Virus genome (UHGV): UHGV-0010228 | DNA length: 64,000 nucleotides | Source of the DNA: a virus | Direction: 5' to 3' (one strand) | Shown here: positions 33,510 through 57,900 of the stretch, piece after piece | Numbering within the stretch: position 1 is the first letter of the stretch | How the letters are laid out: each line of letters starts with the position of its first letter | The notes under the pieces: model-generated | What the model was told of the DNA's origin: nothing | The model's database searches: none | Seen by the model: the letters and a program-made list of their open reading frames with translations, nothing else | Program-made: the position numbers and the translations under genes

Positions 33510-33531
33510 CAAAGGAGGAGAATATTTTATT

Positions 33532-33738: not shown

Positions 33739-33756
33739 AAATAATAATAATATTAG

Positions 33757-33780
33757 AGAATAGACAAAATTGTCTATTCT
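33757..33780 (+). terminator. hairpin (AGAATAGACA-AAAT-TGTCTATTCT). A variant of the repeated GAATGACTA..TAGTCATTC element.
   Basis: 10-bp perfect stem after the stop at 33738. Confidence 0.55.
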
Positions 33781-33792
33781 CTCTCTATTATT

Positions 33793-34040
33793 TCTCTATT
33801 ACTTTCTCTATTATAACCTATAAATTAATATAATAATATCTATAGTATAGAATAATTATATAATATAATTATTCTATACTATAGATATTATTATATTAAT
33901 TTATAGTATTTTATATTATATATAGATTATAACTATAGAAAGGAGATTATATAATTATGGCTTTTTATAGATGTGATAGAGGATTAGGATTTGATATAAG
34001 TAATAGTACAGGAAATAGTAGTGATGTATTGTATAGTAAG
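33793..34040 (+). repeat. left arm of a ~248-bp near-perfect inverted repeat (promoter region, 71-nt palindrome, RBS and first ~28 codons) shared by convergent paralogues
   Basis: The reverse complement of 37566..37813 is identical over the 164 nt upstream of the ATG and over 57+24 nt of CDS (checked base by base). Confidence 0.85.
33827..33897. promoter_or_regulatory. 71-nt perfect palindrome (AATATAATAATATCTATAGTATAGAATAATTATAT-A-ATATAATTATTCTATACTATAGATATTATTATATT) about 60 nt upstream of the start. Candidate promoter/operator.
   Basis: Exact self-complementarity read from the sequence. A second full copy is at 37709..37779 and half-copies at ~53270..53300 and ~54808..54862. Confidence 0.6.
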
Positions 34041-35744
34041 AAGTTTAATAGAGATGTAGGTGATGTACAATTAAATGAATATAAGTTTCCATCACGTATA
34101 TCTTACTCGCTACTTTCAAATAACTCTTTTAGAATTAATTCTAATATATATTTTGTAAATAATCTTTCAATAGATGGTGTTAAGCCCAGTGATATTAAAT
34201 TAGGAATTAATCTATACAACATAAATGGAACTACTAAAATGGCTTGTGCTAATTATAAAGAAACTACCCCCTTTCAGTATATTTCTGATTATATTCCATA
34301 TTACAAATCCTCATGTTGTATATCCCCATCAATTGGGTATAATAATTATATTTGTGGAAATAATACAATATACCAGATAAATAATGATGATAATCATATT
34401 ATTAAAAAATTTAATCTTACAGAAATTCGTAATCAGATTAATTTTTTATATCATAGATATCGATCTCAAAAAATTGAATCTTTTGTTAGTTCTAGATATG
34501 TACCAGAAATTTTAATATATGATTACATTCATAAGACCGATGATCAAATAAAAACGATCTATAAAAATTATTTCAAATCTAATGGCAATATAAACATTGA
34601 TCCTGATGATTATATTATTAATTATTTCAATAATTTTTATCATCAGGAAATCTACTCTAGCGATATCGGAATATACTCTGAATGCGAAAATTATTTAATG
34701 TGTTATTTTCTCGGAAACGAAATTGGATCAGAAATGATTGATAGTATTGTATTTAAGAATATTGATAATGGGAAATATGACGCTGTATATGATTATACTC
34801 CTGCGGGTAGATATACTAGACATTTAGTATACTTTTTAATTAAGATTGAGAATGACGAAATATATTTATATTCACAAACACTTTTTTCTAATGAAGAATT
34901 TAGATATAAATCTCTTCTAAAAATTGATAATAATCATATCTATCATACAATTAACAATAGATCCTCGATGATAGTATGTGAACGAAATTCGAAAACATTT
35001 GAAATAATCGCTAAATACTCGGGATTTTATGACAATACGTATTATTGCAATATTATTGAGCAAGATAATTATTTTTATTATGTTAAATATGCTAAATTAT
35101 ATAAACTAGATTTGGATCTTAATTTGATATCATCTGAATTATTTGATAATGTTGCAACATTATATGGTGATGATCATATAAGTAAAAATCTTTACGCGAC
35201 GCGGTTATCATATTCAAAAAATCATATTAATATATATGGGTTTACCAACGGATTTGGCTCGAAATCAACTACATTTAATGGTATTTCTGGAACTACGAAA
35301 TATCTTCATAATGATGAAACTTATATAGATATACCAATTCAAACAAATCTAAATACACTTACATTAGCAAATCCTAATCTGCTTAGGGTATATGTTACTG
35401 GTTCTATACACATGCTAGAAGATGTAGCGTGGCTCGAAACAGATGATTGTATATTCATGTTTTATAATAAATCAGAAGCTCCATTATATACAGTATTCAA
35501 TACTGATTTTACATATGGCTACACATTAGATTTATCACAGTATGCATTCTATGATATTTTATCACTGAATTTAAAAAATAATGTATTATATATATCATAT
35601 AGAGATAGTAATCGCAATAGATTAAATATTTCTCGTATAGATCTCTACATCAATATTCTTTACTTTCTTAACAATTATAATGAAATTAATATAACTAATA
35701 TAGACTCTTCTAATTCTAATTATACAGATTACTATTTTAATTAA
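33957..35744 (+). CDS. Asn/Tyr/Ile-rich low-complexity protein, paralogue A (N-terminus MAFYRCDRGLGFDISNSTG..., C-terminus ...YTDYYFN)
   Basis: RBS AAAGGAGATT. 595 aa. Coding GC is extremely low. Confidence 0.7.
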   Translation: MAFYRCDRGLGFDISNSTGNSSDVLYSKKFNRDVGDVQLNEYKFPSRISYSLLSNNSFRINSNIYFVNNLSIDGVKPSDIKLGINLYNINGTTKMACANYKETTPFQYISDYIPYYKSSCCISPSIGYNNYICGNNTIYQINNDDNHIIKKFNLTEIRNQINFLYHRYRSQKIESFVSSRYVPEILIYDYIHKTDDQIKTIYKNYFKSNGNINIDPDDYIINYFNNFYHQEIYSSDIGIYSECENYLMCYFLGNEIGSEMIDSIVFKNIDNGKYDAVYDYTPAGRYTRHLVYFLIKIENDEIYLYSQTLFSNEEFRYKSLLKIDNNHIYHTINNRSSMIVCERNSKTFEIIAKYSGFYDNTYYCNIIEQDNYFYYVKYAKLYKLDLDLNLISSELFDNVATLYGDDHISKNLYATRLSYSKNHINIYGFTNGFGSKSTTFNGISGTTKYLHNDETYIDIPIQTNLNTLTLANPNLLRVYVTGSIHMLEDVAWLETDDCIFMFYNKSEAPLYTVFNTDFTYGYTLDLSQYAFYDILSLNLKNNVLYISYRDSNRNRLNISRIDLYINILYFLNNYNEINITNIDSSNSNYTDYYFN

Positions 35745-35786
35745 TAAAATATACATACTATCTATTATAGATAGTATGTATTTGAT

Positions 35787-37649
35787 TTAGTTAAAGTAAT
35801 AATCAGTATAAGATTCATTAGATGTATCTATAGAATATCCAGAATATGATGTATCATAATCATTAAGAAGATAAAGAGTAGAAGCGTTTTTCGCTAATTC
35901 TATAATAAAATATTCCGAACAATAAGGATTTTTGTTTCCACTCGAATAGACAACATGCGGCATAAATAAATAACGGAATTTATCAATTGGCGATATTAAA
36001 TATTCAAAATTTGAATTCATTTTATCTTCAAATAGACGAATCTCAACTTCATTTGGATAATATGACAGTCTATTTAATAAAATATTTCTTTTAGTCGAAT
36101 ACGCATTCAAAGAAACCATATCCACGCAGAAAGATGTATTTTTTTTTGTAGCGTTACCACTTTCGACATCTGGTAATTTATAATTTATATCATTAAATGC
36201 TTCTAAATTTTCTAAATAATATCCACTAAATGAGTTATCTGAGTCGTAACATCCGTTCAATGTCGAAAGGTATGCTGAATAATACGTTTTTCGAGAGTCA
36301 TAAGAAAAATATAGTTGATTTCCAATTGGAAGTGGAACTAAATTATACCTGTTATGAAAATAAATATTAGTCTGTTTAGTGTTATTGGATATAAAATAAA
36401 GATTAATATATTTATCAATAATTAATTCTCCTGATATTATATCATAATATCTAATCTTATTAGAAAAAAAGACTATTAATTTTGAATTATCTTGGCTTAT
36501 TTTATATATTAAATTAAAGGATCCGTCGCCACTGATAGATTGAAATGGTTTATTAAATATTGCTATTTCAGACAAGGAATTTCTATCAATTACCACAACG
36601 CAATAATCAGTTACGTAAGTAGATTTATAAACATACATATCATCATTAATATATGAGTGGTTATTACTAGTATTATAGACCTCAGTGCTATACATCCAAT
36701 ATTTGGCCAGAATCGCCTGATATTCGTTCGTAGAAGAGTTCATTCCCACTTTATCATTTGGATCAATCTCGAACTTATAACCAATTAAATACGTGTCCGA
36801 GACATCTAGTATTGAATATGTTTTCCATTTATTTCCTGAATTCATAGAATAATCAATAAGCTCCATATTTTTATTAAATTTACACCAAATATAACCTGGA
36901 TATATACGTGAAAAATATTTCTTATATGGCGAATCATTATATGAAAATCTAAAATCTGTAACGTATGGTTTTGGAAATAATAAGAAATAATCTCCCATAT
37001 CATATAATTTAGTTTTTCGGTGGTTTATGTACTTATGAGCATCATATGTATTAGAATCTACCAATGGTGAATTTGGAAATGTGATGTGTTTTATAAGTAA
37101 ACCATCTGAATTATATATGTAATAATGTATTAAGCTGTTATAATCAGAGACTGAAAATATATAACAATTATTTGAGCTGTCATATGATATTCTATCATAT
37201 CTAATATCATAATGGGTTTTATATGAATACAGATCGTAACGTATCATAGCTGTCTCATAAAATAATAAACTAGCAAATATGTGATCCAATTCGGGCATGT
37301 TAATGTATTTTATGGGACTCGTTGTTGTGTCAACAAATTTACAACATCCACGGATACCATAAATTTCCACTTTCTCAGAAATATAATTTTTAATATCCTT
37401 TGTTGTTGGTATAGTGATATCTTTAGTTAACATTGATGGCCTATATCCTCTTTCGTCATAGGATAAATAGTAATCATTCATATGATTTATTGTATTAAAC
37501 CATACGCTATAAAATGAATTTAACGTTTCAATATTACCTTTTCTACTCTCTCCATTGTTAAACGTCTTACTATACAATACATCACTACTCTCTCCTGTAC
37601 TATTACTTATATCAAATCCTAATCCTCTATCACATCTATAAAAAGCCAT
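35787..37649 (-). CDS. Asn/Tyr-rich protein, paralogue B (same N- and C-termini as 33957..35744, divergent middle)
   Basis: 620 aa, convergent with paralogue A. Identical RBS and leader. Confidence 0.7.
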   Translation of the reverse strand: MAFYRCDRGLGFDISNSTGESSDVLYSKTFNNGESRKGNIETLNSFYSVWFNTINHMNDYYLSYDERGYRPSMLTKDITIPTTKDIKNYISEKVEIYGIRGCCKFVDTTTSPIKYINMPELDHIFASLLFYETAMIRYDLYSYKTHYDIRYDRISYDSSNNCYIFSVSDYNSLIHYYIYNSDGLLIKHITFPNSPLVDSNTYDAHKYINHRKTKLYDMGDYFLLFPKPYVTDFRFSYNDSPYKKYFSRIYPGYIWCKFNKNMELIDYSMNSGNKWKTYSILDVSDTYLIGYKFEIDPNDKVGMNSSTNEYQAILAKYWMYSTEVYNTSNNHSYINDDMYVYKSTYVTDYCVVVIDRNSLSEIAIFNKPFQSISGDGSFNLIYKISQDNSKLIVFFSNKIRYYDIISGELIIDKYINLYFISNNTKQTNIYFHNRYNLVPLPIGNQLYFSYDSRKTYYSAYLSTLNGCYDSDNSFSGYYLENLEAFNDINYKLPDVESGNATKKNTSFCVDMVSLNAYSTKRNILLNRLSYYPNEVEIRLFEDKMNSNFEYLISPIDKFRYLFMPHVVYSSGNKNPYCSEYFIIELAKNASTLYLLNDYDTSYSGYSIDTSNESYTDYYFN

Positions 37650-37813
37650 AATTATATAATCTCCTTTCTATAGTTATAATCTATATATAATATAAAATAC
37701 TATAAATTAATATAATAATATCTATAGTATAGAATAATTATATAATATAATTATTCTATACTATAGATATTATTATATTAATTTATAGGTTATAATAGAG
37801 AAAGTAATAGAGA
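37566..37813 (-). repeat. right arm of the ~248-bp inverted repeat (includes the palindrome copy at 37709..37779)
   Basis: See left arm. Confidence 0.85.
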
Positions 37814-37827
37814 TATAGAGATATAGA

Positions 37828-37860
37828 GAATGACTATTATTAGTCATTCTATTTGTTTTT
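37828..37860 (+). promoter_or_regulatory. operator-like palindrome GAATGACTA-TTAT-TAGTCATTC followed by T12. Either a hairpin terminator or a dimeric-repressor site. Further copies at 54764..54785 and 53323..53346.
   Basis: 9-bp perfect half-sites. It recurs three times in equivalent positions next to the promoter modules. Confidence 0.5.
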
Positions 37861-37909
37861 TTTTTGTTATACATTATATTAATATTATATAATATAAGGA
37901 GGTATTATA

Positions 37910-38734
37910 ATGTTTGATTTATATAATACATTAGAATCATATAATATAATAGATAATGATTATGCATATGAAGGTATTATAGATAAAGTAAAAAATGTAG
38001 GTAGTACTATATGGGGATTTGTAAAGAAAATGTGGAAAGGAATGAAAGCTAAACTCGCATGGCTAGTTAAAAAAATGATACGTTCAGTTATAGGTAAAGA
38101 TACGAAGAAAAAGTCTAAAGATGATGATGTTATTGAAGTTGATGCTAAACCTGTAAATAATAAATCTGAAGATTCAAATGAATATAAAAATACAGTAAAT
38201 AATGCAAAATCAAATATTAATGCTAGGCATTTAGATGTGAAACTATTAGAAAAATTCTTTAATCTTAGCATGAAACTTTCATCGATACATAGTATAATTA
38301 ATAGATATCGTATAATGCTGAATCGCCAGTCGTTACATGATGCTAAAATATTTCGAGATTTAGGTGTTGATGTCGATGATATCAAGGTTGATGAAAACGA
38401 CAATGATGATGAGGAGAATAAACTTAGAATATCAGAAACTAAATCATTCATTGAAGAATTACAAGAAACGCTTAATAAGATTCCTAAGGAAAGCCGCATA
38501 AATCTTAAAGAATTTATTAAAACTAATGAATCAGTAACAAAAGCATTCGTTACTGATTGTAACAAAACCATTAAAGAAATTGATGAAATTTTAAAAGAAG
38601 TTGATAAGTTAGTAAAAACATCAACAAGTATAACAGAAAAGACAAAAAATATTATAATCACAAACACAAAAGAGATATCTCAAATAGTTGCAGCATATTA
38701 TAAGTGTATGTCGGATGCTTATTTTTTACATTAA
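37910..38734 (+). CDS. alpha-helical hypothetical protein, MFDLY family copy 1 (first 36 aa identical to 53694..54704)
   Basis: RBS TAAGGAGGT. 274 aa. Confidence 0.65.
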   Translation: MFDLYNTLESYNIIDNDYAYEGIIDKVKNVGSTIWGFVKKMWKGMKAKLAWLVKKMIRSVIGKDTKKKSKDDDVIEVDAKPVNNKSEDSNEYKNTVNNAKSNINARHLDVKLLEKFFNLSMKLSSIHSIINRYRIMLNRQSLHDAKIFRDLGVDVDDIKVDENDNDDEENKLRISETKSFIEELQETLNKIPKESRINLKEFIKTNESVTKAFVTDCNKTIKEIDEILKEVDKLVKTSTSITEKTKNIIITNTKEISQIVAAYYKCMSDAYFLH

Positions 38735-46545: not shown

Positions 46546-49500
46546 ATGCCATGGTTTCCTACATGTGGAGGCGTTGATACATCAGACGCAAATGTAACTC
46601 CAGAAGATGTATTAGAAGGAAAAATAGTATATTCACATAATGGCCCAGTTGTGGGCACAATACCAAGTTTACCAGAAAAAACCTGGATTCCAGGACCTGA
46701 AGAACAGGTAATTCCGGGAGGACATTATATTGCAGGTACACAGACAATTAAAGGTGATCCTAACCTTTATCCAGAAAATATAGTTAAAGGTAAAACTATA
46801 TTTGGTGTAGAAGGCACAGGTATACCTGTGGAATTTAACGATCCAACATTTATTGAAAAATTGTGCGTATCAGATTTTAAAGGTAAAGTTGATTTCTCTA
46901 AAGATTCCGAATATTTCTATACTTATGGTACTTCAATTATTAATAAACATAATTCGACAACTGGAGAAGTTATATGGTCTCAATCAATATCTGATGATAC
47001 TAAAAAAATATATTCAAATTTATATATAACACCAGATGATCTTCTTATATATTATGGATCTAAAAATGGATATTTAAATTCAATAATAGCAGATTCAGGA
47101 ATTTCTCATTTAAGTGTTAAGGTATTAGATACAACAAAATCTGTTGAATATATAAAGGGTATTGAAAATTATAAAGGTTCAACATTCAGCTTATTATTAT
47201 TTGTGCCAAATACAACAGTTATTGGAAGGGTAGATTTTATTGACACGTCTACTAATAATATAGAAACAATTACTATACCATCTAGTTATTCTATCGATGT
47301 CGATGATAAGGATATCTATTATTATTGCAATTCTTCTTCTCCAAGAAAGATATGCAAGATATGTACAGATTCAGCGGATAATTATGAAATTGAAACTGGA
47401 ACTATAAATAGTTATGGAATACAACCTGATGGAAAATATTTATACACAGTAGCTAAGGTTGATAATACTACTGATAAATTATCACAGTATAATGCAGAAA
47501 CTGGTGCATTAGTACGTAGTGTGAACGTTGATGTAAACACCCGTGATAACTGCTCATTACTTATTACGGATAGTTTATCGGAATATATATATCTTCAAAA
47601 TACTAGAACTATATATAGATACTCAACTGATTTGTTGTTAAATTATGCTAATAACCCATTTTTATTTACAGATGGTACAGTGTCCAGTGCTGTTGATAGT
47701 GCTAGTGTTGATAGTAATGGAGAATATGTATATGTATCATATTTAAGTGAAGATACCTCTGAGTTGTATAAATATAAGCAGGTATTTGGATCAATATACC
47801 CATTGGAAAATCCGGATCCTTATATCAATATAGATAGAATTATTAAGAGAAAGAAAGATACTTATAAAACATATGAAACCCCAGTAGAAATCTGGGATGA
47901 TGAATATGATTCAGAAATTGACTCTATTAGTTGTACTGATGATGGTCATTATGTATACATATGCACGCAGAATAATGGATTTATAAAAATGAATTCTGTA
48001 AATAAGAAAATTATATGGTCATATAATGATGGTATGTCAGGATATGTAGTTGTAGATCATAATGATAAGTATGTATATGTAGCAACGAATAGTGCATTAA
48101 CTAAACTTGACGCATCAAATGGTAATGTTGTAATTTCATTATCAGATTATGCAAGATCTAGAACTGCTGCATATTCTATACAGAATATGACTATTACAGA
48201 TGATAATGAATATTTAGTATATATTAATAACAATAGTAGCTCTGCAAGTAGTAGTAAAATTGTTAAATTTAAAACTTCAGATATGAGTGTTAAATGGGAA
48301 AAGACACCTCATACTAATTACATTAACCAATTAGATTTAGTAAGTAAAACTGGAGATATATATTTCAATAAATCTTCTCAGATACCTATTGAAACGGATT
48401 ATATTCTTCCATTCACTGGTGGTGTAAATAATGTAGTATATTTTAATAGTAAATATTTATTATTACCTAATAAAACTTTCATTACTAATAGTGAAACTAA
48501 TACAACTGAGTTTACTTATTACTTAGGCGATACTCTTAATATAGCGTATATGGAAAAGCACACTATTAGTACTGATGGGATGAATACTAATTTTAGCGAT
48601 TATACGATAACCAAAATAGTTGCATCTTCATATGTGTGTATTATATATGTAAAAGGCATTGACAATGCATCATTAACTGAAAGTGAAACTTCATTAAATA
48701 AATATTATTATACTTATGATGGCGTAAATTGGAGTGAGGGTTCATTTGGTTTATACTGCCCAACGTCAAATATTATTAATTGTAGTAATACATTTATATA
48801 TTCGGCATCGGATAAGAGTACATATAATAAATTATTCTCATCATATGATGGAATAAATTGGACTGAGAATACTAATTATACAGATACATATACTAATGGT
48901 ACTGTATGGGGATTAGGATATGTCAATTCAAGATATTTATTAGTATCTAATATATTACAATATTCTACAGATTTTAAAACTTTTAGTACTGCAACTATTG
49001 CTAGTTTGCCTAGTGAAACTGCTGTTGGTGAGAATTTTGCTAATAAATATGGAGAAATTCACTGTGTTTATATATATAGCAGATATTATTTAGCTTGTGC
49101 TGATGGAATATATTATTCGTCTGATTTAAATACTTGGACAAAATGTACATTTACTTATCCGACTAGTGCGGATTTTCCTTCCGAATTATCTTACCCATTA
49201 TTAATGACCAACTATAGTAATTATATATATATTATAGAATCTGCTAGTGGTAATACAGCTGAAATATCGAATTATGTAAGATCAATTTATATTACTTCAA
49301 CATCACAGACATCTTTCAATGTAACTAATATTAAAGCTGCACCATTATTAAGTGAAACATCATCAACATCAACATTATTTGTAACTGGTGGATGTGTAAG
49401 TGATAATGCTATTGCCGGTCTTTATTATTCTACAGATGGTAAAACATGGACTCAGTCTAATCTAACAACTGGACTTTTTAGCGATGTGTGTAATTTTGAT

Positions 49501-52500
49501 ATATGGGTAGCAGGTAGTAGTGATGATGGACTTTATTATTCTATAGATGGTAAAACGTGGACTCAATCTAATATAACAACTGGTCATTTTAGTGCTGTAT
49601 ATAATACTACTGGCATATGGATAGCAGGTAGTAGTATTTTTGATAGTAAAGGTCTTTATTATTCTACAAATGGTAAAACATGGTTTCAATCTAATATAAC
49701 AAGCGGAGGATTCTATACTATAAATTATGCTAATGATATATATCTAGCTTGTGGGGAAGGACTTTATTATTCTACAGACGGTAAAACATGGGAAAAGACT
49801 ACTGTGAGTGGAGGATATCTGACTAGTGGGGGTTTTAGAAATGCATATTACGCTGATGCTATGTGGGTAGTGTGTAGTAATGATGACTATTGCTCTTATT
49901 ATTCTAAAGATGGTAAAGCGTGGGCGCAATGTGAACCAGCTGTCGAAGAGGATGTATTTTGTAATATAGTATATTATTCTAATAAGAGTATATGGGTAGC
50001 TGGTAGTGAGCAAAGTAATGGATTGCAATACTCTACAAATGGTATGTCGTGGACTCAGTCTAATATAAGCACTGGAATTATTAGAACGGTGTGTTATGGT
50101 AATAATATAGTTATAGCTGGTGGATATAACACTGGTATATATTATTCTACAGATGGTAAAACGTGGACTCAATCTAATACAACCACTGGATCTTTTAATT
50201 TACTTTATTATTATGAGGATATATATATAGCTGTTAGTGGCAATAATAAAGGTCTTTATTATTCTACAGATGGTAAAACATGGACTCAATCTAATATAAC
50301 TAGTGGAAGTTTTATGACTTCTATAGGTGAATCATACCACCCAGTTACAACAAATAACAACAATAATTACATCTACTGTAATAGTAGATTAGCATCTTTC
50401 CCTGCGGTTACTGCTGATGATACTCATAGTAATACTAAATATAGTATTGGATCATTAGAGAATTCTAAAATTCAACAATTAACTTATCAGGATACTAGAA
50501 CTACTAATACAACATATTACGGATTATCTACATTTAATAATTCAACAGCAATATTATTAGGTCAATTCGAAGGGGCGAATCAAATTACTGATAATTATGC
50601 ATATTCTACAGATAGTGGAGCAACATGGACTGGTGCGCATATGCCTAAAAAAGGCGAATGGATACATGTCGGAAAATTAATGAGTAAATATATTGCAGTA
50701 TGTAATAGTAGTAATAATTTAGCAATATATGAATCGTCAGATGGGAAATCATGGTCACAGGGATCTATAACAAATTCCAATGGTAACGCATTAGCAAATA
50801 ACATGATATCTATAAATAACGATGAAAATGATGTTAAAATAAAAGTAATAACTAGTCCACTTATATCATCATTTGCAATAATCGTTTATACAACAATTGG
50901 CATAAATGTTGAAGGATATTATGTTTCATCTTCATTAAGCACTGGAAGTGCATTTAAAGTACAAAATTTCTCATCAAATATGACATCAACCCCATTATGT
51001 GCTATAAACGATACTTCACAAAAATGTATGTTTTTAGGTTGGAGTAATAATGGTAAATTTATGTACAGTGATGATATGCTATTATCACTCATGAATGGTG
51101 ATTACTATACTGAAGTTACATCTTCAGAATCAATATCAAACTGGGATATGTATTCTGAAATAACAGGTGTAAAACTTTCAGATACTCAATATTTAGTATC
51201 GATGCAACCAACTTCATCATCAAGCTTAGTTAAAGTAGGATTGCTCGATACAAGTGCAAATACTTTAACATTTAGAGCGTCAACGTGGTATAATGGTAGA
51301 TTTGTTGCTCCAGCAAATGGTAAGTTATATGCACTTAATACTTATAGTGTAAATGGAAATAGTGGTGGAGGTAAATTTACATCTATAACAAACTATGACA
51401 CAACTAATACTGTAAAAGATGATGTTCTTCCGTCAGATCTATCATCATCTATAAGTAAAAATGATAAAACATATACTACATTATGCTCTTCAGGTACAAA
51501 TCTTATTACAGTTATAAATGGTGAACCATATGCATATTATACTAAGAACCCATTAGTAATTTCTGGTGGTGATGATAGATATATTAGAGCTATAGATTTC
51601 TTAACTGGAAATACAATATGGTCATTCTCATTATCATATGCTGCAAATGGTATATATGTAAGTGATGATAAGAAGTTTGTATATGCTACAGTAAATGGCA
51701 ATTCATCATCAGCTAATCTTTATAAATATAATATTAATGCTACTAATTTATCTTCAATGAAGTATTCTACTAATTCATATTCTAGTGCAATATTCGGTAA
51801 TGGAGATAAGATATTTACTGTTAAAAGTTCTAATGGTGGTATATTAGCCGCATATGATCCTGAATATCTTACAAATGATTATTCACTTACAGGTGCTAAT
51901 GATACATCAACTGGACAGGAATATGGTAGATGTTTAACTTATGATTCTGCTGGTGATTATATATATGCTGGTACTTATATGAATACTGGCAAAGGCCATT
52001 TACATAAATATAAATTAAAAGAAATTGAATATGAAAAGATAGCAAGGGTATATAAGACTACTACAACAGGAGAAGATACTGAGGGAAAGGTATGGACTCA
52101 ATCTAATATAAATAGTGGAGATTTTTATACAGTGTATTATGGTAATAGTATATGGGTAGCCGGCAGTATTAGCGGTAAAGGTCTTTATTATTCTACAAAC
52201 GGTAAAGTATGGACTCAATCTAATATAACTAGTGGAGATTTTAGATCTGTATATAATGCTAATGGTATATGGGTAGCTGCTAGTGATAGTGATAATGGTC
52301 TATATTATTCTACAGATGGTAAAGTATGGACTCAATCTAATATAAATAGTGGATATTTTTATACAGTGTATTATGATAATAGTATATGGGTAGCTTGTAG
52401 TGGTAAAGGTATATTTTATTCTACAGATGGTAAATCATGGACTCAATCTAATATAAATAGTGGAGATTTTTATACAGTGTATAATGCTAATGGTATATGG

Positions 52501-53007
52501 ATAGCTGGTGGTATTGATACTGGTCTTTATTATTCTACAAACGGTAAAGTATGGACTCAATCTAATATAACTAGTGGAGATTTTAGATCTGTATATAATG
52601 CTAATGGTATATGGGTAGCTGGTAGTGATAGTGATAATGGTCTATATTATTCTACAGATGGTAAAGTATGGACTCAATCTAATATAGATAATGGTAGTTT
52701 TAATACTGTATATTATGCTAATGATATATGGGTAGCTGGTAGTAGTGTTAATAAAGGTCTTTATTATTCTACAGATGGTAAATCGTGGACTCAATCTAAT
52801 ATAACTAGTGGAGATTTTAGATCTGTATATAATGCTAATGGTATAATTATTGCTGGTAGTTATAGTAGTAATGGTATATTTTATTCTACAGATGGTAAAT
52901 CATGGATTCAATCTAATATAAATAGTGGAGATTTTTATACTGTATATAATGCTAATGGTATATGGGTAGCTGGTAGTATTGATACTGGTCTTTATTATTC
53001 AGAATAA
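46546..53007 (+). CDS. giant (2153 aa) multidomain tail fibre/adhesin. N-terminal anchor, two YVTN-type beta-propeller-like regions, two arrays (about 10 and about 12) of BNR/Asp-box-like repeats. C-terminus ...GLYYSE.
   Basis: RBS GAAAGGAG. Collar NIVKGKTIFGVEGTGIP. Repeats such as GIQPDGKYLYTVAKVDNTTDKLSQYNAETGALV and LYYSTDGKTWTQSNITTGHFSAVYNTTGIWIAG. Confidence 0.8.
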   Translation: MPWFPTCGGVDTSDANVTPEDVLEGKIVYSHNGPVVGTIPSLPEKTWIPGPEEQVIPGGHYIAGTQTIKGDPNLYPENIVKGKTIFGVEGTGIPVEFNDPTFIEKLCVSDFKGKVDFSKDSEYFYTYGTSIINKHNSTTGEVIWSQSISDDTKKIYSNLYITPDDLLIYYGSKNGYLNSIIADSGISHLSVKVLDTTKSVEYIKGIENYKGSTFSLLLFVPNTTVIGRVDFIDTSTNNIETITIPSSYSIDVDDKDIYYYCNSSSPRKICKICTDSADNYEIETGTINSYGIQPDGKYLYTVAKVDNTTDKLSQYNAETGALVRSVNVDVNTRDNCSLLITDSLSEYIYLQNTRTIYRYSTDLLLNYANNPFLFTDGTVSSAVDSASVDSNGEYVYVSYLSEDTSELYKYKQVFGSIYPLENPDPYINIDRIIKRKKDTYKTYETPVEIWDDEYDSEIDSISCTDDGHYVYICTQNNGFIKMNSVNKKIIWSYNDGMSGYVVVDHNDKYVYVATNSALTKLDASNGNVVISLSDYARSRTAAYSIQNMTITDDNEYLVYINNNSSSASSSKIVKFKTSDMSVKWEKTPHTNYINQLDLVSKTGDIYFNKSSQIPIETDYILPFTGGVNNVVYFNSKYLLLPNKTFITNSETNTTEFTYYLGDTLNIAYMEKHTISTDGMNTNFSDYTITKIVASSYVCIIYVKGIDNASLTESETSLNKYYYTYDGVNWSEGSFGLYCPTSNIINCSNTFIYSASDKSTYNKLFSSYDGINWTENTNYTDTYTNGTVWGLGYVNSRYLLVSNILQYSTDFKTFSTATIASLPSETAVGENFANKYGEIHCVYIYSRYYLACADGIYYSSDLNTWTKCTFTYPTSADFPSELSYPLLMTNYSNYIYIIESASGNTAEISNYVRSIYITSTSQTSFNVTNIKAAPLLSETSSTSTLFVTGGCVSDNAIAGLYYSTDGKTWTQSNLTTGLFSDVCNFDIWVAGSSDDGLYYSIDGKTWTQSNITTGHFSAVYNTTGIWIAGSSIFDSKGLYYSTNGKTWFQSNITSGGFYTINYANDIYLACGEGLYYSTDGKTWEKTTVSGGYLTSGGFRNAYYADAMWVVCSNDDYCSYYSKDGKAWAQCEPAVEEDVFCNIVYYSNKSIWVAGSEQSNGLQYSTNGMSWTQSNISTGIIRTVCYGNNIVIAGGYNTGIYYSTDGKTWTQSNTTTGSFNLLYYYEDIYIAVSGNNKGLYYSTDGKTWTQSNITSGSFMTSIGESYHPVTTNNNNNYIYCNSRLASFPAVTADDTHSNTKYSIGSLENSKIQQLTYQDTRTTNTTYYGLSTFNNSTAILLGQFEGANQITDNYAYSTDSGATWTGAHMPKKGEWIHVGKLMSKYIAVCNSSNNLAIYESSDGKSWSQGSITNSNGNALANNMISINNDENDVKIKVITSPLISSFAIIVYTTIGINVEGYYVSSSLSTGSAFKVQNFSSNMTSTPLCAINDTSQKCMFLGWSNNGKFMYSDDMLLSLMNGDYYTEVTSSESISNWDMYSEITGVKLSDTQYLVSMQPTSSSSLVKVGLLDTSANTLTFRASTWYNGRFVAPANGKLYALNTYSVNGNSGGGKFTSITNYDTTNTVKDDVLPSDLSSSISKNDKTYTTLCSSGTNLITVINGEPYAYYTKNPLVISGGDDRYIRAIDFLTGNTIWSFSLSYAANGIYVSDDKKFVYATVNGNSSSANLYKYNINATNLSSMKYSTNSYSSAIFGNGDKIFTVKSSNGGILAAYDPEYLTNDYSLTGANDTSTGQEYGRCLTYDSAGDYIYAGTYMNTGKGHLHKYKLKEIEYEKIARVYKTTTTGEDTEGKVWTQSNINSGDFYTVYYGNSIWVAGSISGKGLYYSTNGKVWTQSNITSGDFRSVYNANGIWVAASDSDNGLYYSTDGKVWTQSNINSGYFYTVYYDNSIWVACSGKGIFYSTDGKSWTQSNINSGDFYTVYNANGIWIAGGIDTGLYYSTNGKVWTQSNITSGDFRSVYNANGIWVAGSDSDNGLYYSTDGKVWTQSNIDNGSFNTVYYANDIWVAGSSVNKGLYYSTDGKSWTQSNITSGDFRSVYNANGIIIAGSYSSNGIFYSTDGKSWIQSNINSGDFYTVYNANGIWVAGSIDTGLYYSE
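49405..50320 (+). repeat. tandem ~120-bp coding repeats (first BNR-like array of the giant gene)
   Basis: Periodic ...TATTATTCTACAGATGGTAAAACATGGACTCAATCTAAT... Confidence 0.75.
52081..53004 (+). repeat. tandem ~120-bp coding repeats (C-terminal BNR-like array). Units are about 95-100% identical to those at 41.5-41.9 kb and 62.3-64 kb.
   Basis: The 70-mer TATTATTCTACAGATGGTAAAGTATGGACTCAATCTAATATAGATAATGGTAGTTTTAATACTGTATAT occurs at ~41563 and ~52653. Confidence 0.85.
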
Positions 53008-53224: not shown

Positions 53225-53387
53225 TCATCTATATCTCTCTTCATTCTCTATATATTTTTTTCTATAAATTAATATATAGATATTATTATATTAATTTATA
53301 GGTAAATAAGAGAGAAAAATAGTGAATGACTAATATTAGTCATTCACTATTTTAATATATTTAAATATTTATTAGCTTCATCATTAC

Positions 53388-53693: not shown

Positions 53694-54704
53694 TTAATTT
53701 GGCGATACTATTAATTTAGATATAATTGCGCTTATTCTGGTATAATGAGATGATAAATATTTAGTTTTTTTGAGAATGAGTTCATGTATATTAGTTCCTG
53801 TACGGCCGTCACCTATGCGTTGTCGTGCAATACGTAATCCGTTGTCATTTTTCATATTAAATTCGTAATTTCCATGATGAGTTTTTAACTCATTCAGTCT
53901 GTTATTGATAAAATTTAAGATAATACCGGCGCTCTTGTTTAATTTCGATACTTTATTTAAAAGTGTAATATAATGTTTTTCAACACTAGGTATCTTACTC
54001 GTTAATAGATTAGATCCTTTATTCGCTATACTATTTTCCAATTTTGTTAATTGAGAATCAATCTCATCATTAGAATAACGACGGCTATTATCCTCATAAT
54101 ATTCTAAGCGATCTTCTGCCTTATCATCTGATATTATTTTTGTTCCTCGTTTAGCTTCGAGAATTATTATATTTAACGCTTCGTTATATCTATTAGCTTC
54201 CACATCTATATAATCTGCTATTCTTACCAAGAATCTCAAATCAATTTCTAAGTCTTTTTTCAATTGATTACCTTTTAATTTAGGGCTTTTATATCTACTA
54301 GTCTTTTCAGGCTCTGGTAAACTTTTAACTATTGGCTTATCTTCTTCTTTACCATCACTTTTTAATCTTCTTCTAGTTATATTCTTACCTCTACCTTTAG
54401 CAAATTTATTAGATGTAGAAGTAGATAAATTATCTTCATCATTTTCTTCTGGATATGGTTCTTCTTCATCTTCTTCTTCTATTGATTTATTTCCTCTATT
54501 TTTAATAAAGTTTTTAACAGATTCCCACGCTTTCTTTATCTTTTTACCTAATTCTCCTAATTTATTCGTTATAGTTTCCCATATTTTCTTTAACCATCCC
54601 CATATAGTACTACCTACATTTTTTACTTTATCTATAATACCTTCATATGCATAATCATTATCTATTATATTATATGATTCTAATGTATTATATAAATCAA
54701 ACAT
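53694..54704 (-). CDS. alpha-helical hypothetical protein, MFDLY family copy 2 (336 aa; N-terminal 36 aa identical to 37910..38734)
   Basis: RBS GGAGGTATTATA identical to copy 1. Confidence 0.65.
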   Translation of the reverse strand: MFDLYNTLESYNIIDNDYAYEGIIDKVKNVGSTIWGWLKKIWETITNKLGELGKKIKKAWESVKNFIKNRGNKSIEEEDEEEPYPEENDEDNLSTSTSNKFAKGRGKNITRRRLKSDGKEEDKPIVKSLPEPEKTSRYKSPKLKGNQLKKDLEIDLRFLVRIADYIDVEANRYNEALNIIILEAKRGTKIISDDKAEDRLEYYEDNSRRYSNDEIDSQLTKLENSIANKGSNLLTSKIPSVEKHYITLLNKVSKLNKSAGIILNFINNRLNELKTHHGNYEFNMKNDNGLRIARQRIGDGRTGTNIHELILKKTKYLSSHYTRISAIISKLIVSPN

Positions 54705-54763
54705 TATAATACCTCCTTATATTATATAATATTAATATAATGTATAACAAAAAAAAAACAAAT

Positions 54764-54785: not shown

Positions 54786-54898
54786 TCTATTCTCTATTAT
54801 AACCTATAAATTAATATAATTATTCTATACTATAGATATTATTATATTAATTTATAGGTAAATAAGAGAGAAAGTAATAGATAGAGTAATGATAGATA

Positions 54899-54997: not shown

Positions 54998-57900
54998 TTG
55001 GCATGGTATACAGCAGTTAATGCACATGATACATCAGATGCTACTGCATCTGATAATGATATTAGAAAAGGTAAAACTGCATATGTTAATAATAAATTAG
55101 TTACTGGTACAATGCCAGAAAAAGCTGCTGCTACATATACACCATCAACGAAAGATCAAACTATAACTAGTGGAGTATATTTAGCCGGAGATCAGACTAT
55201 AAAAGGAGATTCTAATCTCATATCTGATAATATAGTTAGAAAAAAATCAATATTTGGAGTTGAAGGAAATCAAATTCCTATAGAATTTAATGATCAAGTA
55301 AAGATGCTGAGTGGGATTACTCACGAAACTATAACCTATGATAATGAAAAAATATTAACATCTTTTAATAAAAATACCAATGCCGCTGTAATAATGAGCG
55401 CAATTAGATTAAATGATGAAAATTATAATGTAACGAAAGTTTATTCATATAAGATATTATTTACATATTTGTCATTAGATACATATGATGTAGTATCATC
55501 ATCAACATTCATTATTTGTAGATCTAAAATTGATGGTTATGCTGATAGTGATACTGATGAAATAATACAATCTAGAAATAACTTTACTACTACAAATTTC
55601 TTTCCTGTAACTGAAAGACCAATGATAACTAGTATTTCATTAGAAAATGATGGAATAGTACTTGTATCTATGAGAGGAATCAGTTCATACATTGGATCTG
55701 GTGCTAATTTTCAAAATATAGCAAAAATCGATCTGAAAAACGGAAAATTGATATCAACAATGTCAATTCTTGATGATTATGTAAATCATATATCAAATGC
55801 AGTTAATTGTGTGAAAATGATTGATGATAATATTTATATAGATGGTCCTGCAACACAGCCGGGATTAAATTATATAACAGTTGATGGTGCATATTCAATA
55901 TCGCCATACTCATCGGCAATTAATGGATATATATTATATGAATATCATAATGATATAAGCACTGAACCTATACAATATTATGTTGTAACCGAACAATATA
56001 ATTCATCGTTAGGTATATATGAACCAAAACTATCTGAGAAAAAACAGATCCCAGCATATGGTTGGTGTATGGATAGATACTCTAGAATTATGCTTACTGA
56101 TTATCATAATGCTAATGTCTGGGACTATATATGTTATTTTAACGGATATTACTATATAATATTTGGTTTGGCATATGATGATCATTTATTAAGAACTACA
56201 GATTTTTCTAATTTTGATTATATTAGCTTTACTGATGATTTTAAAATTTCATTTTACAGTAATCGAACTGCCATGGTATCTGCTCTTATTTCAGATACAG
56301 TAAATAATAAATTATTATTTTTATGCACTGACGATCATCGTTTTGCTATATATGATGGTACTACTAATAAAACATCATATTTAGCCTTACCATATGATAA
56401 CTATAATACAGGATATAATGGATTTACAACACTTAGAAGTGCGGCATTTGACTATAATAAAACCTTCGTATTTCATTTTGGACAAAATAGTGCAAATTCA
56501 AAAGATTATCCAGATCCAACGAATAACTATATTTTCGTGACAACAAATTATGGATCGTCATACACAGTTATTGACATTAAAGATATCTTTTCAGAAGCTA
56601 TACAAAATCAGCTAAGCGGTTATTCGATTAATTATGGCATTGGTCTTGGATATATAAATGAAGCTTTTTATATATTTTCAACAGCTAGAAATTCTAATTC
56701 ATCGAGTTATAATAGCTATGTTATAATATCTAAATCTATTGATGGACTTAATTGGGAAACACCTACATTAGTATATAATAGCGACACATATTATACAACA
56801 CATTCAAAAAAAAGTATTGCCGGTGATAGTAATAATACTATAGTAATCATAACCACATCAGAACGAAATAATGATGATAGTACAAGAGTAGGATATATAT
56901 ATTCAAGGGATAATGGGGTATCATGGTCATCAATAAATACATTAAGATCTTCTTTTACTGCGAATGGTACTATCGCAACCTCAATTGCATATGGTAATGG
57001 AAAATTTATTGTTACAATTAGCTGTTCTGATGATGATTATGTTAGAATATACTATAGTACAAATGGGTCGTCGTGGTCAAGCACATCTTTATCAATCAAT
57101 AGTGATAAAGAGTGTTGTTATAGAGTTTCGTATTGTAATGATCGCTTTATAATGATGCCATCATGGGGCTATAGATTTTTTTATAGCACAGATGGTATAT
57201 CTTGGACATCATCTGCTGCGCTATATAATAGAGGATCATGCAAAATAACTATAAAACCATATATGCTGACTGATTCTAGATACTCATTGTATTTTAACAA
57301 TTCTTCATATTCTTCACAATATCTTGAAAAGATATTATACATTGTACCGGACTATTGTTCGAGTCTTGGTTGGAGCAGTTATGGTATAAATAAAACGATA
57401 GGAACTCTTGATGGCTCATCGTGGTATTTGTATAAACGTAATGATTCTTTTTCTATTTCAGCTCCTGATTGGTTATCTGATACTTACTATCCTAATAAAA
57501 GTTACGAATGTGATGATGAGAAATCCTTTACAAATAATATTTATATTGGCATGAGTTATGGTACAGACCCAACCTCATCAATATATGGAAAGTACCCATT
57601 TTACACAACTAATGGGCGACAGATATATGCATGGACAGCAATGATTTCTGTGCTTGCTCAGCTTAAATCAATTACTACCAATATGGTTGATTATTTTTGT
57701 GTATTCTATAGCACATATTATAATAAATATTTAATTATACTTACTATATATGATAAACCGAATTCAAAACGTGTTACGTATATGTACTATACCACATCTA
57801 TCGGAACTGCAACTGTAAATAGTTACAATTTTGATTCTGCCGATTTTCACGACAATTTTGTTTCTGCTATAGATATGTCCACTCTTAGTATGTATGAAGA

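What the first reader, a model, noticed from the sequence alone, without database searches (positions are those of the whole stretch)
33793..37813. Convergent Asn/Tyr-rich paralogue pair flanked by a 248-bp perfect inverted repeat containing a 71-nt palindrome
Genes 33957..35744 (+) and 35787..37649 (-) share identical promoter, RBS, first ~28 codons and last 7 codons (YTDYYFN) but diverge in the middle. Both encode very low-complexity N/Y/I-rich proteins. The inverted-repeat arms are identical for 164 nt upstream of each ATG and include an exact 71-nt palindrome, a possible cruciform or bidirectional promoter/operator. Homologous recombination across the arms would invert the 3.5-kb segment. 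This looks like a recent inverted duplication followed by central diversification, the pattern expected of a receptor-binding cassette. The central palindrome is a striking regulatory candidate.
Basis: seen in the sequence. Interest (0 to 1): 0.65.

Follow-up and report, generated by a model that had tools for sequence, protein, structure and literature searches.

The report
Flippable tail-fibre gene pair, jumbo phage
Two back-to-back genes for highly variable tail-fibre-like proteins of an uncultured human-gut jumbo phage each carry the same start module with a long DNA hairpin. Because the two modules face each other, ordinary recombination flips, deletes or reshuffles the pair between strains, so this is a plasticity hot spot and not an on/off switch.

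Summary
The arms 33789-34048 and 37558-37817 form a 260-nt inverted repeat at 98% identity. The palindrome is 89 nt (44+1+44), not 71.

The window comes from a 224-235 kb human-gut jumbo phage distantly related to Bacillus phage AR9. A and B belong to a tiny family of about 12 known alleles. All share an N-terminus also found in the neighbouring large fibre-like genes, an invariant C-terminus YTDYYFN, and middles that cannot be aligned.

Each gene keeps its own complete 5' module, so inversion cannot switch expression. No recombinase domain was found in the 64 kb.

Related assemblies show the cassette in both orientations, including in two strains that are 99.95% identical in their flanks. They also show it at a second genomic site, or deleted leaving a scar.

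The palindrome keeps perfect symmetry while its interior drifts. It is the longest of many perfect-palindrome hairpins in this genome. My reading is a promoter/hairpin/N-terminus module that acts as a handle for homologous recombination, similar to T4 PeSL cassettes combined with repeat-mediated flip-flop. "Recent duplication then central diversification" is not supported. The role of the palindrome itself is unresolved.

The parts
33789..34048 (+). Left arm of the inverted repeat. It is the 5' module of gene A: outer TCTCTAT repeats, palindrome, leader/RBS and first ~30 codons.
37558..37817 (-). Right arm of the inverted repeat. It is the 5' module of gene B.
33818..33906 (.). Palindrome P1, 44+1+44 nt, with unpaired centre base 33862 (A on + strand).
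37700..37788 (.). Palindrome P2. It is identical to P1 read on the same strand, with centre base 37744 = A on + strand.
33782..33811 (+). Three TCTCTAT(T) repeats at 11-12 nt spacing on the outer side of P1. In the window this motif clusters only next to P copies.
37795..37829 (-). Four TCTCTAT repeats on the outer side of P2.
33933..33995 (+). Ultraconserved block: CTATAGAAAGGAGAT leader/RBS plus the first 13 codons (MAFYRCDRGLGFD). The 39 coding nt are identical in 9 of the 10 alleles read, and one allele has a single non-synonymous change. The leader also varies slightly (GTATAG in L017; the spacer length differs).
37611..37673 (-). The same ultraconserved block for gene B.
33957..35744 (+). 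Gene A, 595 aa. Fibre-family protein with the A-type C-terminus ...NYNEINITNIDSSNSNYTDYYFN.
35787..37649 (-). Gene B, 620 aa. Fibre-family protein with the B-type C-terminus ...LLNDYDTSYSGYSIDTSNESYTDYYFN.
35646..35873 (.). Conserved 3' junction: the last ~30 codons of A, a shared hairpin, and the last ~29 codons of B. It is 94% identical to locus L001, whose gene middles are unrelated.
35751..35781 (.). Perfect-palindrome hairpin between the two stop codons. It is terminator-like on both strands.
33755..33782 (.). Terminator-like hairpin after upstream gene U (33532-33738).
37827..37850 (+). Terminator-like hairpin plus T-run between P2 and the promoter of gene C.
37851..38076 (+). Left arm of a second inverted repeat: the promoter/RBS and first ~36 codons of gene C (37910-38734).
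54538..54763 (-). Right arm of the second inverted repeat, 90% identical: the 5' module of gene C' (53694-54704).
54804..54857 (.). Decayed palindrome copy P3*: a complete H arm plus the last 10 nt of the other arm. It lies at the alternative cassette site between C' and F.
53262..53301 (.). More strongly decayed palindrome copy P4*, with TCTCTAT-type flanks and a neighbouring hairpin.
54998..59269 (+). Large fibre-like gene F. Its N-terminus (MAWY..DTSDATA..NIVRKKSIFGVEG) is homologous to the first ~93 aa of A and B. It borders the cassette in strains L013 and L002.
46546..53007 (+). Large fibre-like gene G, with the same N-terminal module.

Best explanation
The locus is an accessory, recombination-prone cassette of two complete, convergent genes. 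They belong to a small hypervariable tail-fibre-like family in an AR9-like human-gut jumbo phage.

Every family gene has the same layout:
- a constant 5' module (TCTCTAT repeats, hairpin palindrome, leader/RBS, first 13-26 codons);
- an interchangeable middle of roughly 450-650 aa;
- a constant C-terminal ~30 aa ending in YTDYYFN.

In this cassette the two 5' modules face each other, so they form a 260-bp inverted repeat. General homologous recombination between the arms flips the 3.9-kb segment. No dedicated invertase appears to be involved. The flip is neutral for expression, because each gene carries its own module. The constant 5' module and the conserved 3' junction also serve as homology handles. 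Through them single middles are exchanged, and whole cassettes are lost or appear at a second site bounded by the same modules.

The palindrome is most likely a hairpin of the terminator/insulator or leader type. That would make the module a composite hairpin-plus-promoter cassette. Its perfect symmetry would be kept by selection for folding on both strands, by arm-to-arm template switching, or by both.

Shown: the anatomy, the family, the natural isomers, the deletion scar and the compensated drift of the palindrome. Inferred: the tail-fibre role, the recombination pathway and the hairpin's function.
For: **Phage identity and context**
- Contigs of 223-235 kb from human-gut metagenomes carry the locus.
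- The terminase is ~35% identical to those of Bacillus jumbo phages of the AR9/PBS1 group.
- Sheath, tube and baseplate genes and fibre-like genes surround the locus.

**The gene family**
- A profile search of 1.84 billion representative proteins finds 18 hits. About 12 of them have the MAFYRCDRGLGFD start and most of those also the YTDYYFN end, and none of the middles can be aligned.
- The first ~93 aa align to the N-termini of F and G and to the repeat protein P0015.
- YTDYYFN is invariant, yet 5 of its 7 codons vary synonymously among the alleles. This indicates selection at the protein level.
- The first 39 coding nt are identical in 9 of 10 alleles (one carries a single non-synonymous change), including those from a phage only ~79% identical in flanking DNA.

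**Both orientations exist**
- L002 matches L013 at 99.95% over 4.1 kb of flank, but carries the cassette inverted (99.65% identity).
- In sample ERZ27286990, contig L025 reads U-P(centre T) and contig L003 reads C-P(centre A)-A. Together they are the window's cassette flipped, with both centre bases changing from A/A to T/T.
- These junctions combine unique flank sequence with arm-specific markers within less than the assembly k of 141, so they are unlikely to be graph chimeras.

**Crossovers are not at a fixed site**
- One exchange lies in the outer 69 nt of the arm. The other lies between codon 20 and the end of the shared coding sequence (codon 26).

**Loss and second site**
- L004, L007, L022 and L024 lack the cassette. 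They keep a relic of the leader next to P, joined at a CTTTCT microhomology.
- In L013, L014 and L002 the cassette lies between C'' and F, where the window has only the decayed copy P3*.

**Allele swapping**
- A is ~99% identical in the window and in L002, the near-identical sister contig of L013. Its partner, however, is B in one and B3 (P0006) in the other.
- L001 shares only the arms and the 3' junction with the window.

**No recombinase**
- No recombinase domain was found in the ORFs scanned. Most ORFs of at least 100 aa were run against Pfam. Five structural ones, including the terminase and sheath, were run only against PHROGs.

**The palindrome**
- Window P and L001 P differ by 6 substitutions and 3 indels per arm, all mirrored in the other arm.
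- A third locus has a 34-nt version with the same ends.
- The window holds at least 12 other perfect hairpins with 13-29 bp arms, many with A/T-run flanks.
Against: - All evidence for the isomers comes from short-read metagenome assemblies. No reads were inspected, so the rate of flipping and the coexistence of both forms within one population are unknown.
- The tail-fibre role rests on N-terminal homology to unannotated neighbours and on gene context. There is no hit in Pfam, PHROGs or the PDB. The structure model is unusable, with pLDDT 30.
- The promoter was not identified. The AR9-type late motif AACA-N6-TA is enriched upstream of neighbouring structural genes but is absent from A and B. 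A and B could therefore belong to another temporal class.
- The nucleotide-level invariance of the leader and first 13 codons across phage species exceeds what within-genome gene conversion explains. It hints at an extra constraint on RNA or DNA.
- At the third locus the short palindrome sits in a divergent intergenic region, where a terminator for incoming transcription is not obviously needed.
- The rest of the ~230-kb genome was not searched for recombinases.
Confidence: 0.6

Rival explanations
1. The palindromes are structure-specific recombination sites. They would be folded hairpins or cruciforms with conserved ends and free interiors, formally like integron attC sites. An unidentified phage nuclease or recombinase would cut or exchange them. 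That would actively flip, excise and re-insert fibre cassettes at other palindrome-bearing sites.
For: - The ends CTATAAAT...ATTTATAG are conserved while interior length (34, 89, 92 nt) and sequence vary, always with perfect symmetry.
- P copies or their scars lie at every cassette boundary and at both alternative sites.
- The window/ERZ27286990 inversion has its exchange in the outer arm or flank of P.
- Centre-deleted copies show that the element is fragile.
Against: - The L002/L013 inversion crossed over between codon 20 and the end of the shared coding sequence, not in P.
- The cassette deletion used a CTTTCT microhomology outside P and left a leader relic.
- No recombinase or nuclease domain was found in the 64 kb.
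- Perfect palindromes are common as ordinary hairpins in this genome.
Confidence: 0.12
2. The palindrome is a regulatory element shared by both genes. It would be an operator or promoter-associated cruciform, or a 5'-leader hairpin that sets mRNA stability or translation. The inverted repeat then exists mainly because both genes need identical regulation, and recombination is incidental.
For: - P lies immediately upstream of the leader of family genes at three loci in several phages.
- The leader and first 13 codons are conserved at the nucleotide level beyond what the protein requires.
- A possible stem CUAUAGAAAG/CUUUUUAUAG encloses the RBS and AUG.
- As RNA the hairpin is very stable, at -49 kcal/mol.
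Against: - The interior sequence is not conserved, so a sequence-specific operator is unlikely.
- The gene for P0007 has the palindrome collapsed.
- No promoter could be placed.
- The leader stem is not significant against shuffles and cannot show covariation because it is invariant.
Confidence: 0.15
3. The locus is a programmed, invertase-driven host-range switch like the Mu G, P1 C or e14 P segments.
For: - A segment flanked by inverted repeats holds two alternative fibre-like genes.
- Both orientations are seen in nature.
Against: - No serine or tyrosine recombinase domain was found in the window.
- The arms are 260 bp and hold complete 5' modules. Neither gene depends on an outside promoter or constant exon, so inversion changes nothing that can be read from the sequence.
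- The crossover points differ between events.
Confidence: 0.06
4. The pair arose by a recent inverted duplication of one gene, followed by rapid diversification of the middle.
For: - The 5' ends are near-identical and the last 7 residues are shared.
Against: - The middles show no detectable similarity apart from one short motif.
- The C-terminal codons differ synonymously (4 of 21 nt) while the 5' end is identical.
- The same ends flank at least 12 unrelated middles.
- A keeps ~99% identity across strains while its partner is replaced outright.
Confidence: 0.04

Closest known systems
PeSL (promoter-early stem-loop) cassettes of T4-type phages (Arbiol et al. 2010, PMC2839356; Comeau et al. 2014, PMC4122927)
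   Same: - Both are repeated intergenic modules that combine a stem-loop with the expression signals of the downstream gene.
- Both sit at the borders of insertions, deletions and replacements between closely related phages.
- Both act through homologous recombination without a dedicated recombinase.
   Different: - PeSLs are short and number about 50 per genome. They have sigma-70-type promoters and G/C-rich stems, and precede unrelated ORFans.
- Here the module is ~260 bp and includes the first codons of the protein.
- It is tied to one gene family and has an 89-bp A/T palindrome.
- It occurs as an inverted pair, so the product is inversion. Promoter and terminator activities are untested.
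Invertible tail-fibre segments: Mu G/Gin, P1 C/Cin, e14 P/Pin (my own knowledge; summarised in the preprint 10.64898/2026.02.14.705889)
   Same: - A few-kb segment flanked by inverted repeats carries two alternative fibre genes in opposite orientations.
- Both orientations occur.
   Different: - Those systems use a serine invertase, ~34-bp sites and an enhancer.
- They swap variable 3' parts onto a constant 5' part and promoter outside the segment, so only one set is expressed.
- Here both genes are complete and self-sufficient, no invertase is seen, and crossovers are not fixed.
Recombinase-independent genome isomerism through long inverted repeats (Anabaena cyanophages, preprint 10.64898/2026.02.14.705889; also herpesvirus and plastid flip-flop, my own knowledge)
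   Same: - Inverted repeats of hundreds of nt flank a segment found in both orientations among related phages.
- No dedicated recombinase is required.
   Different: - The cyanophage segment is ~30 kb with 400-700 nt repeats of no assigned function.
- Here the segment is 3.9 kb, and the repeats are the functional 5' modules of two paralogous genes.
- Coexistence of both isomers within one population has not been shown here.
Integron attC sites (my own knowledge)
   Same: - Both are palindromic elements with conserved ends and a variable interior in both length and sequence.
- Both lie at gene-cassette boundaries.
   Different: - There is no integrase here.
- attC sites are imperfect, with extrahelical bases, and their cassettes are promoterless.
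- Here the palindromes are perfect, the cassettes carry their own leaders, and observed breakpoints are not confined to the element.
Modular receptor-binding proteins with a conserved N-terminal anchor and exchangeable distal parts (e.g. T4-superfamily fibres and adhesins, PMC3157838)
   Same: - A conserved N-terminal part is shared with other fibre genes of the same phage.
- The distal parts are highly divergent.
- Exchange happens at conserved segments.
   Different: - A conserved C-terminal ~30 aa tail is present as well.
- The constant 5' part is conserved at the nucleotide level together with the leader.
- The fibre role itself is not demonstrated.

Membership tests
Invertase-driven invertible fibre segment (Mu G / P1 C / Hin-Gin-Cin-Pin type) | A serine invertase gene adjacent to the segment | tested here: not met
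   No recombinase domain was found in the ORFs scanned. Most ORFs of at least 100 aa in the 64 kb were run against Pfam, and five structural ones only against PHROGs. The rest of the genome was not examined.
Invertase-driven invertible fibre segment (Mu G / P1 C / Hin-Gin-Cin-Pin type) | Short crossover sites with a fixed core | tested here: not met
   The arms are 260 nt. Two natural inversions exchanged at different places, one in the outer 69 nt and one between codon 20 and the end of the shared coding sequence.
Invertase-driven invertible fibre segment (Mu G / P1 C / Hin-Gin-Cin-Pin type) | Inversion joins alternative 3' gene parts to one fixed promoter or constant 5' part outside the segment | tested here: not met
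   Both genes have their own leader, RBS and start codon inside the segment.
Invertase-driven invertible fibre segment (Mu G / P1 C / Hin-Gin-Cin-Pin type) | Both orientations occur | tested here: met
   L002 against L013, and L003 plus L025 against the window. This holds between samples. Whether it holds within a single population is unknown.
PeSL-type mobile regulatory cassette | A repeated intergenic motif that joins a stem-loop to the promoter of the downstream gene | tested here: inconclusive
   The stem-loop and the shared leader/RBS are clear. No promoter could be identified.
PeSL-type mobile regulatory cassette | Located at the borders of indels and replacements between close relatives | tested here: met
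   Cassette loss, a second site, allele replacement and inversion are all bounded by the module.
PeSL-type mobile regulatory cassette | Many dispersed copies in front of unrelated genes | tested here: not met
   There are four copies or relics in 64 kb, all at the two cassette sites. Elsewhere the element precedes only a family gene.
PeSL-type mobile regulatory cassette | Circular excision products (mini-circles) | not testable with these tools
   This needs reads or PCR.
Repeat-mediated (recombinase-independent) genome isomerism | Long inverted repeats flank a segment that exists as two isomers | tested here: met
   Equimolar coexistence of the isomers within one stock cannot be tested here.
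Integron attC-like structured recombination site | An associated integrase and recombination confined to the folded site | tested here: not met
   No integrase was found. Breakpoints lie outside P in two of three events.
Integron attC-like structured recombination site | A palindrome with conserved ends and a variable interior | tested here: met
Tail-fibre-like proteins sharing the MAW/FY..DTSDATA..NIxxGxxIFGVxG N-terminal module | Sequence homology of the N-terminal ~90 aa | tested here: met
   P0015 aligns to A residues 1-93 (E 3.7e-6), to F 1-92 (2e-28) and to G (3e-21), all within a small local database. The motif at residues 80-92 is invariant or conserved in the family alignment.
Tail-fibre-like proteins sharing the MAW/FY..DTSDATA..NIxxGxxIFGVxG N-terminal module | Being a virion fibre or receptor-binding component | not testable with these tools
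   The module has no functional annotation in Pfam, PHROGs or the PDB. Only gene context supports this role.

The most novel reading that the evidence does not exclude
The perfect palindromes may form a dedicated, structure-read recombination system. In this reading they are hairpin or cruciform sites with conserved ends CTATAAAT/ATTTATAG and free interiors. An as yet unidentified jumbo-phage enzyme would use them to flip, excise and re-insert receptor-binding gene cassettes among several genomic docking sites. That would amount to an integron-like device for phage host range. The nucleotide-invariant leader plus first 13 codons would serve as the second recombination or translation-control handle.
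Probability: 0.1. Interest if true: 0.8.

Novelty: new variant of a known kind. Interest (0 to 1): 0.45.

Why it matters
- **Mechanism of host-range plasticity.** The locus gives a concrete, sequence-level picture of how an uncultured human-gut jumbo phage keeps its presumed host-recognition genes plastic. A shared module of hairpin, leader and N-terminus acts as a recombination handle, and natural strains document flipping, swapping, loss and relocation.
- **Practical warning.** Inverted repeats around paired fibre genes need not be invertase switches. They also break or scramble short-read assemblies, as shown by the many contigs that end exactly at the arms.
- **Testable oddities.** An 89-bp perfect palindrome whose symmetry is preserved while its sequence drifts is unusual. 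So is a ~65-nt translation-start block that is almost invariant across phage species. Both are cheap to test with RNA-seq, long reads and virion proteomics once a host is found.

Tried and rejected
**Searches that found nothing**
- blastn of the locus and tblastn of P0004 against 50,697 phage genomes.
- Exact-pattern scans of IMG/VR, JGI metagenomes and GTDB genomes for the palindrome half-site and for the leader/start block. The lineage is present only in the ENA and Logan assemblies reached through protein look-ups.
- Pfam and PHROGs for A and B.
- The PDB by sequence or profile.
- Rfam at E up to 1 across 33000-38600.
- tRNA genes in the window.

**Analyses that did not help**
- The AlphaFold2 model of A with the 6-sequence family alignment had mean pLDDT 30.4 and pTM 0.18. 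It is unusable, so no fold search was run.
- Sigma-70-type promoter matches are no more frequent than in shuffles, 48 against 50.
- The AR9 early-promoter consensus AAATATATATTAT is not used recognisably. An apparent 12/13 match in one arm is a (TA)n coincidence.
- A formal pair count on aligned palindromes was abandoned because MAFFT placed the gaps asymmetrically. The mirrored differences were shown by aligning each arm separately.

**Ideas considered and rejected**
- Transposon: there are no target-site duplications and no transposase, and homology decays gradually into the TCTCTAT repeats.
- Hairpin-telomere site: copies are internal and multiple, and contig ends are explained by repeats.
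- Diversity-generating retroelement: no reverse-transcriptase domain appeared in the Pfam scans of the window's ORFs. The divergence covers the whole middle of the protein, not a short templated stretch.
- Assembly artefact for the repeat itself: it recurs in independent assemblies made with different assemblers.

Full report
**1. The observation**

- The repeat finder reports arms 33789-34048 and 37558-37817, 260 nt, 98% complementary, 3509 nt apart.
- A base-by-base comparison gives perfect runs of 69, 151 and 25 nt. Mismatches are at 33862, 34014, 34016 and 34042.
- The palindrome is 89 nt (44+1+44), at 33818-33906 and 37700-37788. Its only unpaired base is the centre, which is 'A' on the + strand in both copies.
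- As single-stranded DNA it folds at -34.7 kcal/mol, z = -10 against shuffles.
- Gene A is 33957-35744 (+), 595 aa. Gene B is 35787-37649 (-), 620 aa. They align only over residues 1-31 (29/31 identical) by BLASTP.
- phmmer adds a weak match over the last ~32 residues.
- The proteins are rich in N, Y and I (31-35%) but are not low-complexity.

**2. The genome**

- The window has 31% G+C and no tRNA genes.
- It encodes a large terminase, sheath, tube, baseplate and virion proteins.
- The terminase is ~35% identical to those of Bacillus jumbo phages BpSp, AR9 and PBS1.
- Exact-protein look-ups place the locus on contigs of 223,545, 234,045 and 235,396 bp. These come from human-gut metagenomes, including Hadza samples.
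- The AR9 late-promoter motif AACA-N6-TA (PMC5312081) occurs 10 times in 39 upstream 100-nt windows, against 1.8 expected. It lies upstream of 38871, 43177, 46546 and 54998, but not upstream of A, B, C or C'.

**3. What A and B are**

- They have no Pfam, PHROG, PDB or Rfam match. The AlphaFold model is unusable.
- Word-indexed searches found only a handful of relatives.
- A profile search of 1.84 billion representative proteins found 18 hits. About 12 start with MAFYRCDRGLGFDxSNSTG, and most of those also end in one of two related C-terminal forms...NYNEINITNID..YTDYYFN or ...LLNDYDTxYxGYxID..YTDYYFN.
- Between these ends the sequences cannot be aligned, apart from a motif (D/N)Ixxx(I/V)x(I/L)Yx(I/V)xG near residues 80-92.
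- This N-terminal ~93 aa is the same module that opens the large fibre-like genes F (54998-59269) and G (46546-53007). It is also repeated in proteins such as P0015.
- The neighbouring genes 25858-28959 and 38871-39896 hit PHROG families labelled tail fiber.
- A tail-fibre or host-recognition role is therefore an inference from homology to unannotated neighbours and from context.

**4. Two kinds of conservation**

- Among 11 alleles, YTDYYFN is invariant while 5 of its 7 codons vary synonymously. This is the signature of selection on the peptide.
- In contrast, the first 39 coding nt are identical in 9 of 10 alleles. One allele carries a single non-synonymous change (F12Y). The leader CTATAGAAAGGAGAT is the same apart from its first base in L017 and the length of the spacer before the ATG.
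- This holds even for alleles from a phage whose flanking DNA is only ~79% identical to the window.
It is not a mark of a recent duplication.
- A and B also have lower G+C (25-27%) than the window average.

**5. Comparative anatomy**

Name the genes U (33532-33738), C (37910-38734), C' (53694-54704) and F. The arrangements found are listed below.

| Arrangement | Where seen |
|---|---|
| U - P - A> <B - P - C> | window; scaffold_17 of ERZ28615499 |
| U-P(centre T) and <C-P(centre A)-A> <B | sample ERZ27286990, contigs L025 and L003 |
| U - leader relic - P - C (cassette absent) | 223.5-kb contig (L004/L022) and three other contigs |
| <F - P - B3> <A - P - C''> | same 223.5-kb contig, second site (L013) |
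| <F - P - A> <B3 | L002, from a sister sample |

- The ERZ27286990 contigs are exactly the window's cassette inverted. Both centre bases flip from A/A to T/T.
- The contigs that lack the cassette are joined at a CTTTCT microhomology. This is equivalent to deleting about 33809-37664 of the window.
- At the second site, between F and a C-type gene, the window has only the decayed copy P3* (54804-54857).
- L002 is 99.95% identical to L013 over 4.1 kb of F flank but has the cassette inverted (99.65% identity).
- L002 ends one base before the first position at which the two arm variants differ. This is a weak hint of mixed linkage in that sample.
- In L013 the arms differ by a (TA)n run and several substitutions, so no exact repeat reaches the assembly k of 141.
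- In L003, the C-specific flank and the 'A' centre lie within one k-mer. Chimeric graph paths are therefore unlikely, although reads were not inspected.
- Many other contigs stop exactly inside the arms, as expected for a repeat.

**6. Allele exchange**

- A is ~99% identical in the window and in L002, the near-identical sister contig of L013. Its partner is B in one and B3 (P0006) in the other, and these share only their ends.
- L001 shares with the window only the arms (85%) and a 228-nt 3' junction (94%). That junction comprises both C-termini and the intervening hairpin. Both middles differ.
- Some alleles are split into two ORFs, which is consistent with dispensability.
- A third locus elsewhere in the genome holds a single family gene.

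**7. Mechanism**

- Each arm contains a complete leader, RBS and start codon. At the second site both outside neighbours are transcribed away from the cassette. Inversion therefore changes no linkage that can be read from the sequence.
- No recombinase domain was found in the window ORFs scanned.
- The two documented inversions exchanged at different positions. One is in the outer 69 nt. The other is between codon 20 and the end of the shared coding sequence.
- The deletion used a microhomology outside P.
- Together these points favour general homologous recombination between the two 5' modules. Illegitimate deletion and exchange at the conserved 3' junction add to it.
- A second inverted repeat covers the 5' modules of C and C' (37851-38076 / 54538-54763, 90%). 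It follows the same design and brackets 16.5 kb of fibre-like genes. No inverted isomer of that segment was seen.

**8. The palindrome**

- Only its ends (CTATAAAT...ATTTATAG) are conserved.
- The L001 version (45+2+45) differs from the window version by 6 substitutions and 3 indels per arm, all mirrored.
- The third-locus version has 16-nt arms. In L017 the element has collapsed, yet the gene is intact.
- P3* and P4* are centre-deleted.
- The window contains at least 12 other perfect hairpins with 13-29 bp arms, many with A/T-run flanks. P is the extreme of a genome-wide style.
- A hairpin that must fold in transcripts of both strands cannot tolerate G-U pairs. This would select for perfect Watson-Crick symmetry.
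- Template switching at quasipalindromes (PMC7202029) would produce the same pattern without selection.
- I favour a hairpin of insulator/terminator or leader type inside a composite module (roughly 0.4). DNA-level fragility could be a contributing cause of the local plasticity.
- The specific function is not shown.

**9. Comparison with known systems**

- The module behaves like the PeSL cassettes of T4-type phages.
- The inversion behaves like repeat-mediated isomerism, recently reported in cyanophages.
- The locus fails the defining tests of Mu G-type switches and of integron attC systems.
- I therefore rate it a new variant of known kinds. It is real, informative about fibre-gene plasticity in gut jumbo phages, and has two unexplained details: the palindrome's maintained symmetry and the nucleotide-invariant start block. 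It is not a new class of system on present evidence.

Noticed in passing
37851-38076 and 54538-54763 (with adjoining hairpins and P copies: ~37700-38076 vs 54538-54857): A second inverted repeat (226 nt, 90%) is formed by the promoter/RBS and first ~36 codons of two further paralogues. These are C (37910-38734, 274 aa) and C' (53694-54704, 336 aa), which diverge after MFDLYNTLESYNIIDNDYAYEGIIDKVKNVGSTIWG. The repeat brackets 16.5 kb of fibre-like genes. No inverted isomer was seen in the loci fetched.
   Followed up: partly
54804-54857 and 53262-53301: These are decayed copies of the palindrome, with centre deletions between short direct repeats and TCTCTAT-type flanks. The first lies exactly where other strains carry the A/B3 cassette.
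   Followed up: yes
43091-43128 and 45781-45818: The identical 38-nt perfect palindrome AATTACGGTATATTCTATATATAGAATATACCGTAATT, followed by a T-run, occurs on both sides of fibre-like gene 43177-45759. The same pair is present in L004.
   Followed up: partly
whole window, e.g. 53165-53222, 38737-38776, 14536-14575, 17780-17815, 15226-15259, 2953-2990, 11903-11933: Intergenic hairpins in this phage are typically perfect palindromes with little or no unpaired centre (0-6 nt) and arms of 13-29 bp. They often have an A-run on one side and a T-run on the other, which is the look of a bidirectional terminator.
   Followed up: partly
upstream of 8258, 9080, 11980, 21412, 38871, 43177, 46546, 54998 and others: The AR9-type late-promoter motif AACA-N6-TA is about 5-fold enriched in the 100 nt upstream of genes (10 hits against 1.8 expected). 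It is absent upstream of A, B, C and C'.
   Followed up: partly
33933-33995 and 37611-37673; also L013, L001, L016, L017, L019, L021: The leader plus first 13 codons are nucleotide-identical in 9 of 10 family alleles, even across phages only ~79% identical in flanking DNA. One allele has a single non-synonymous change, and the leader varies slightly. A possible stem CUAUAGAAAG/CUUUUUAUAG would enclose the RBS and AUG, but its folding energy is not significant against shuffles.
   Followed up: partly
33862 and 37744; L013 9905 and 13656: The unpaired centre base of the two palindrome copies is the same on the same strand in every genome where both are known (A/A or T/T). The two copies are therefore direct copies, although their flanks are inverted.
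   Followed up: partly
17799-19415 (-): A phage-encoded polyphosphate-kinase-like protein (Pfam PP_kinase_C, E = 2e-30; PP_kinase_C_1, E = 5e-26).
   Followed up: no
59889-61016 (-): A DHH/DHHA1-family phosphoesterase-like gene, with weak Pfam matches below the curated cut-offs.
   Followed up: no
53388-53670 (-): An open frame of ~94 codons without an obvious start codon lies between the decayed palindrome copy and C'. It has no Pfam match and may be a gene remnant.
   Followed up: partly
39880-41934, 46546-53007, 61146-64000 and 31695-33509: Several fibre-like genes carry long arrays of a ~38-aa repeat (GLYYSTDGKxWTQSNIxxGxFxxVYNANGIWVA). Their lengths differ between strains (for example G is 2153 aa here and 1843 aa elsewhere, and E is 684, 633, 619 or 595 aa).
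   Followed up: no
L018 3515-3548, L021 9929-9962 (third locus, outside the window): A single family gene (P0008 or P0009) lies near a head-tail joining gene. It has a 34-nt version of the palindrome 16 nt upstream of the same leader. A C-type gene and a gene with the C-type promoter are close by.
   Followed up: partly
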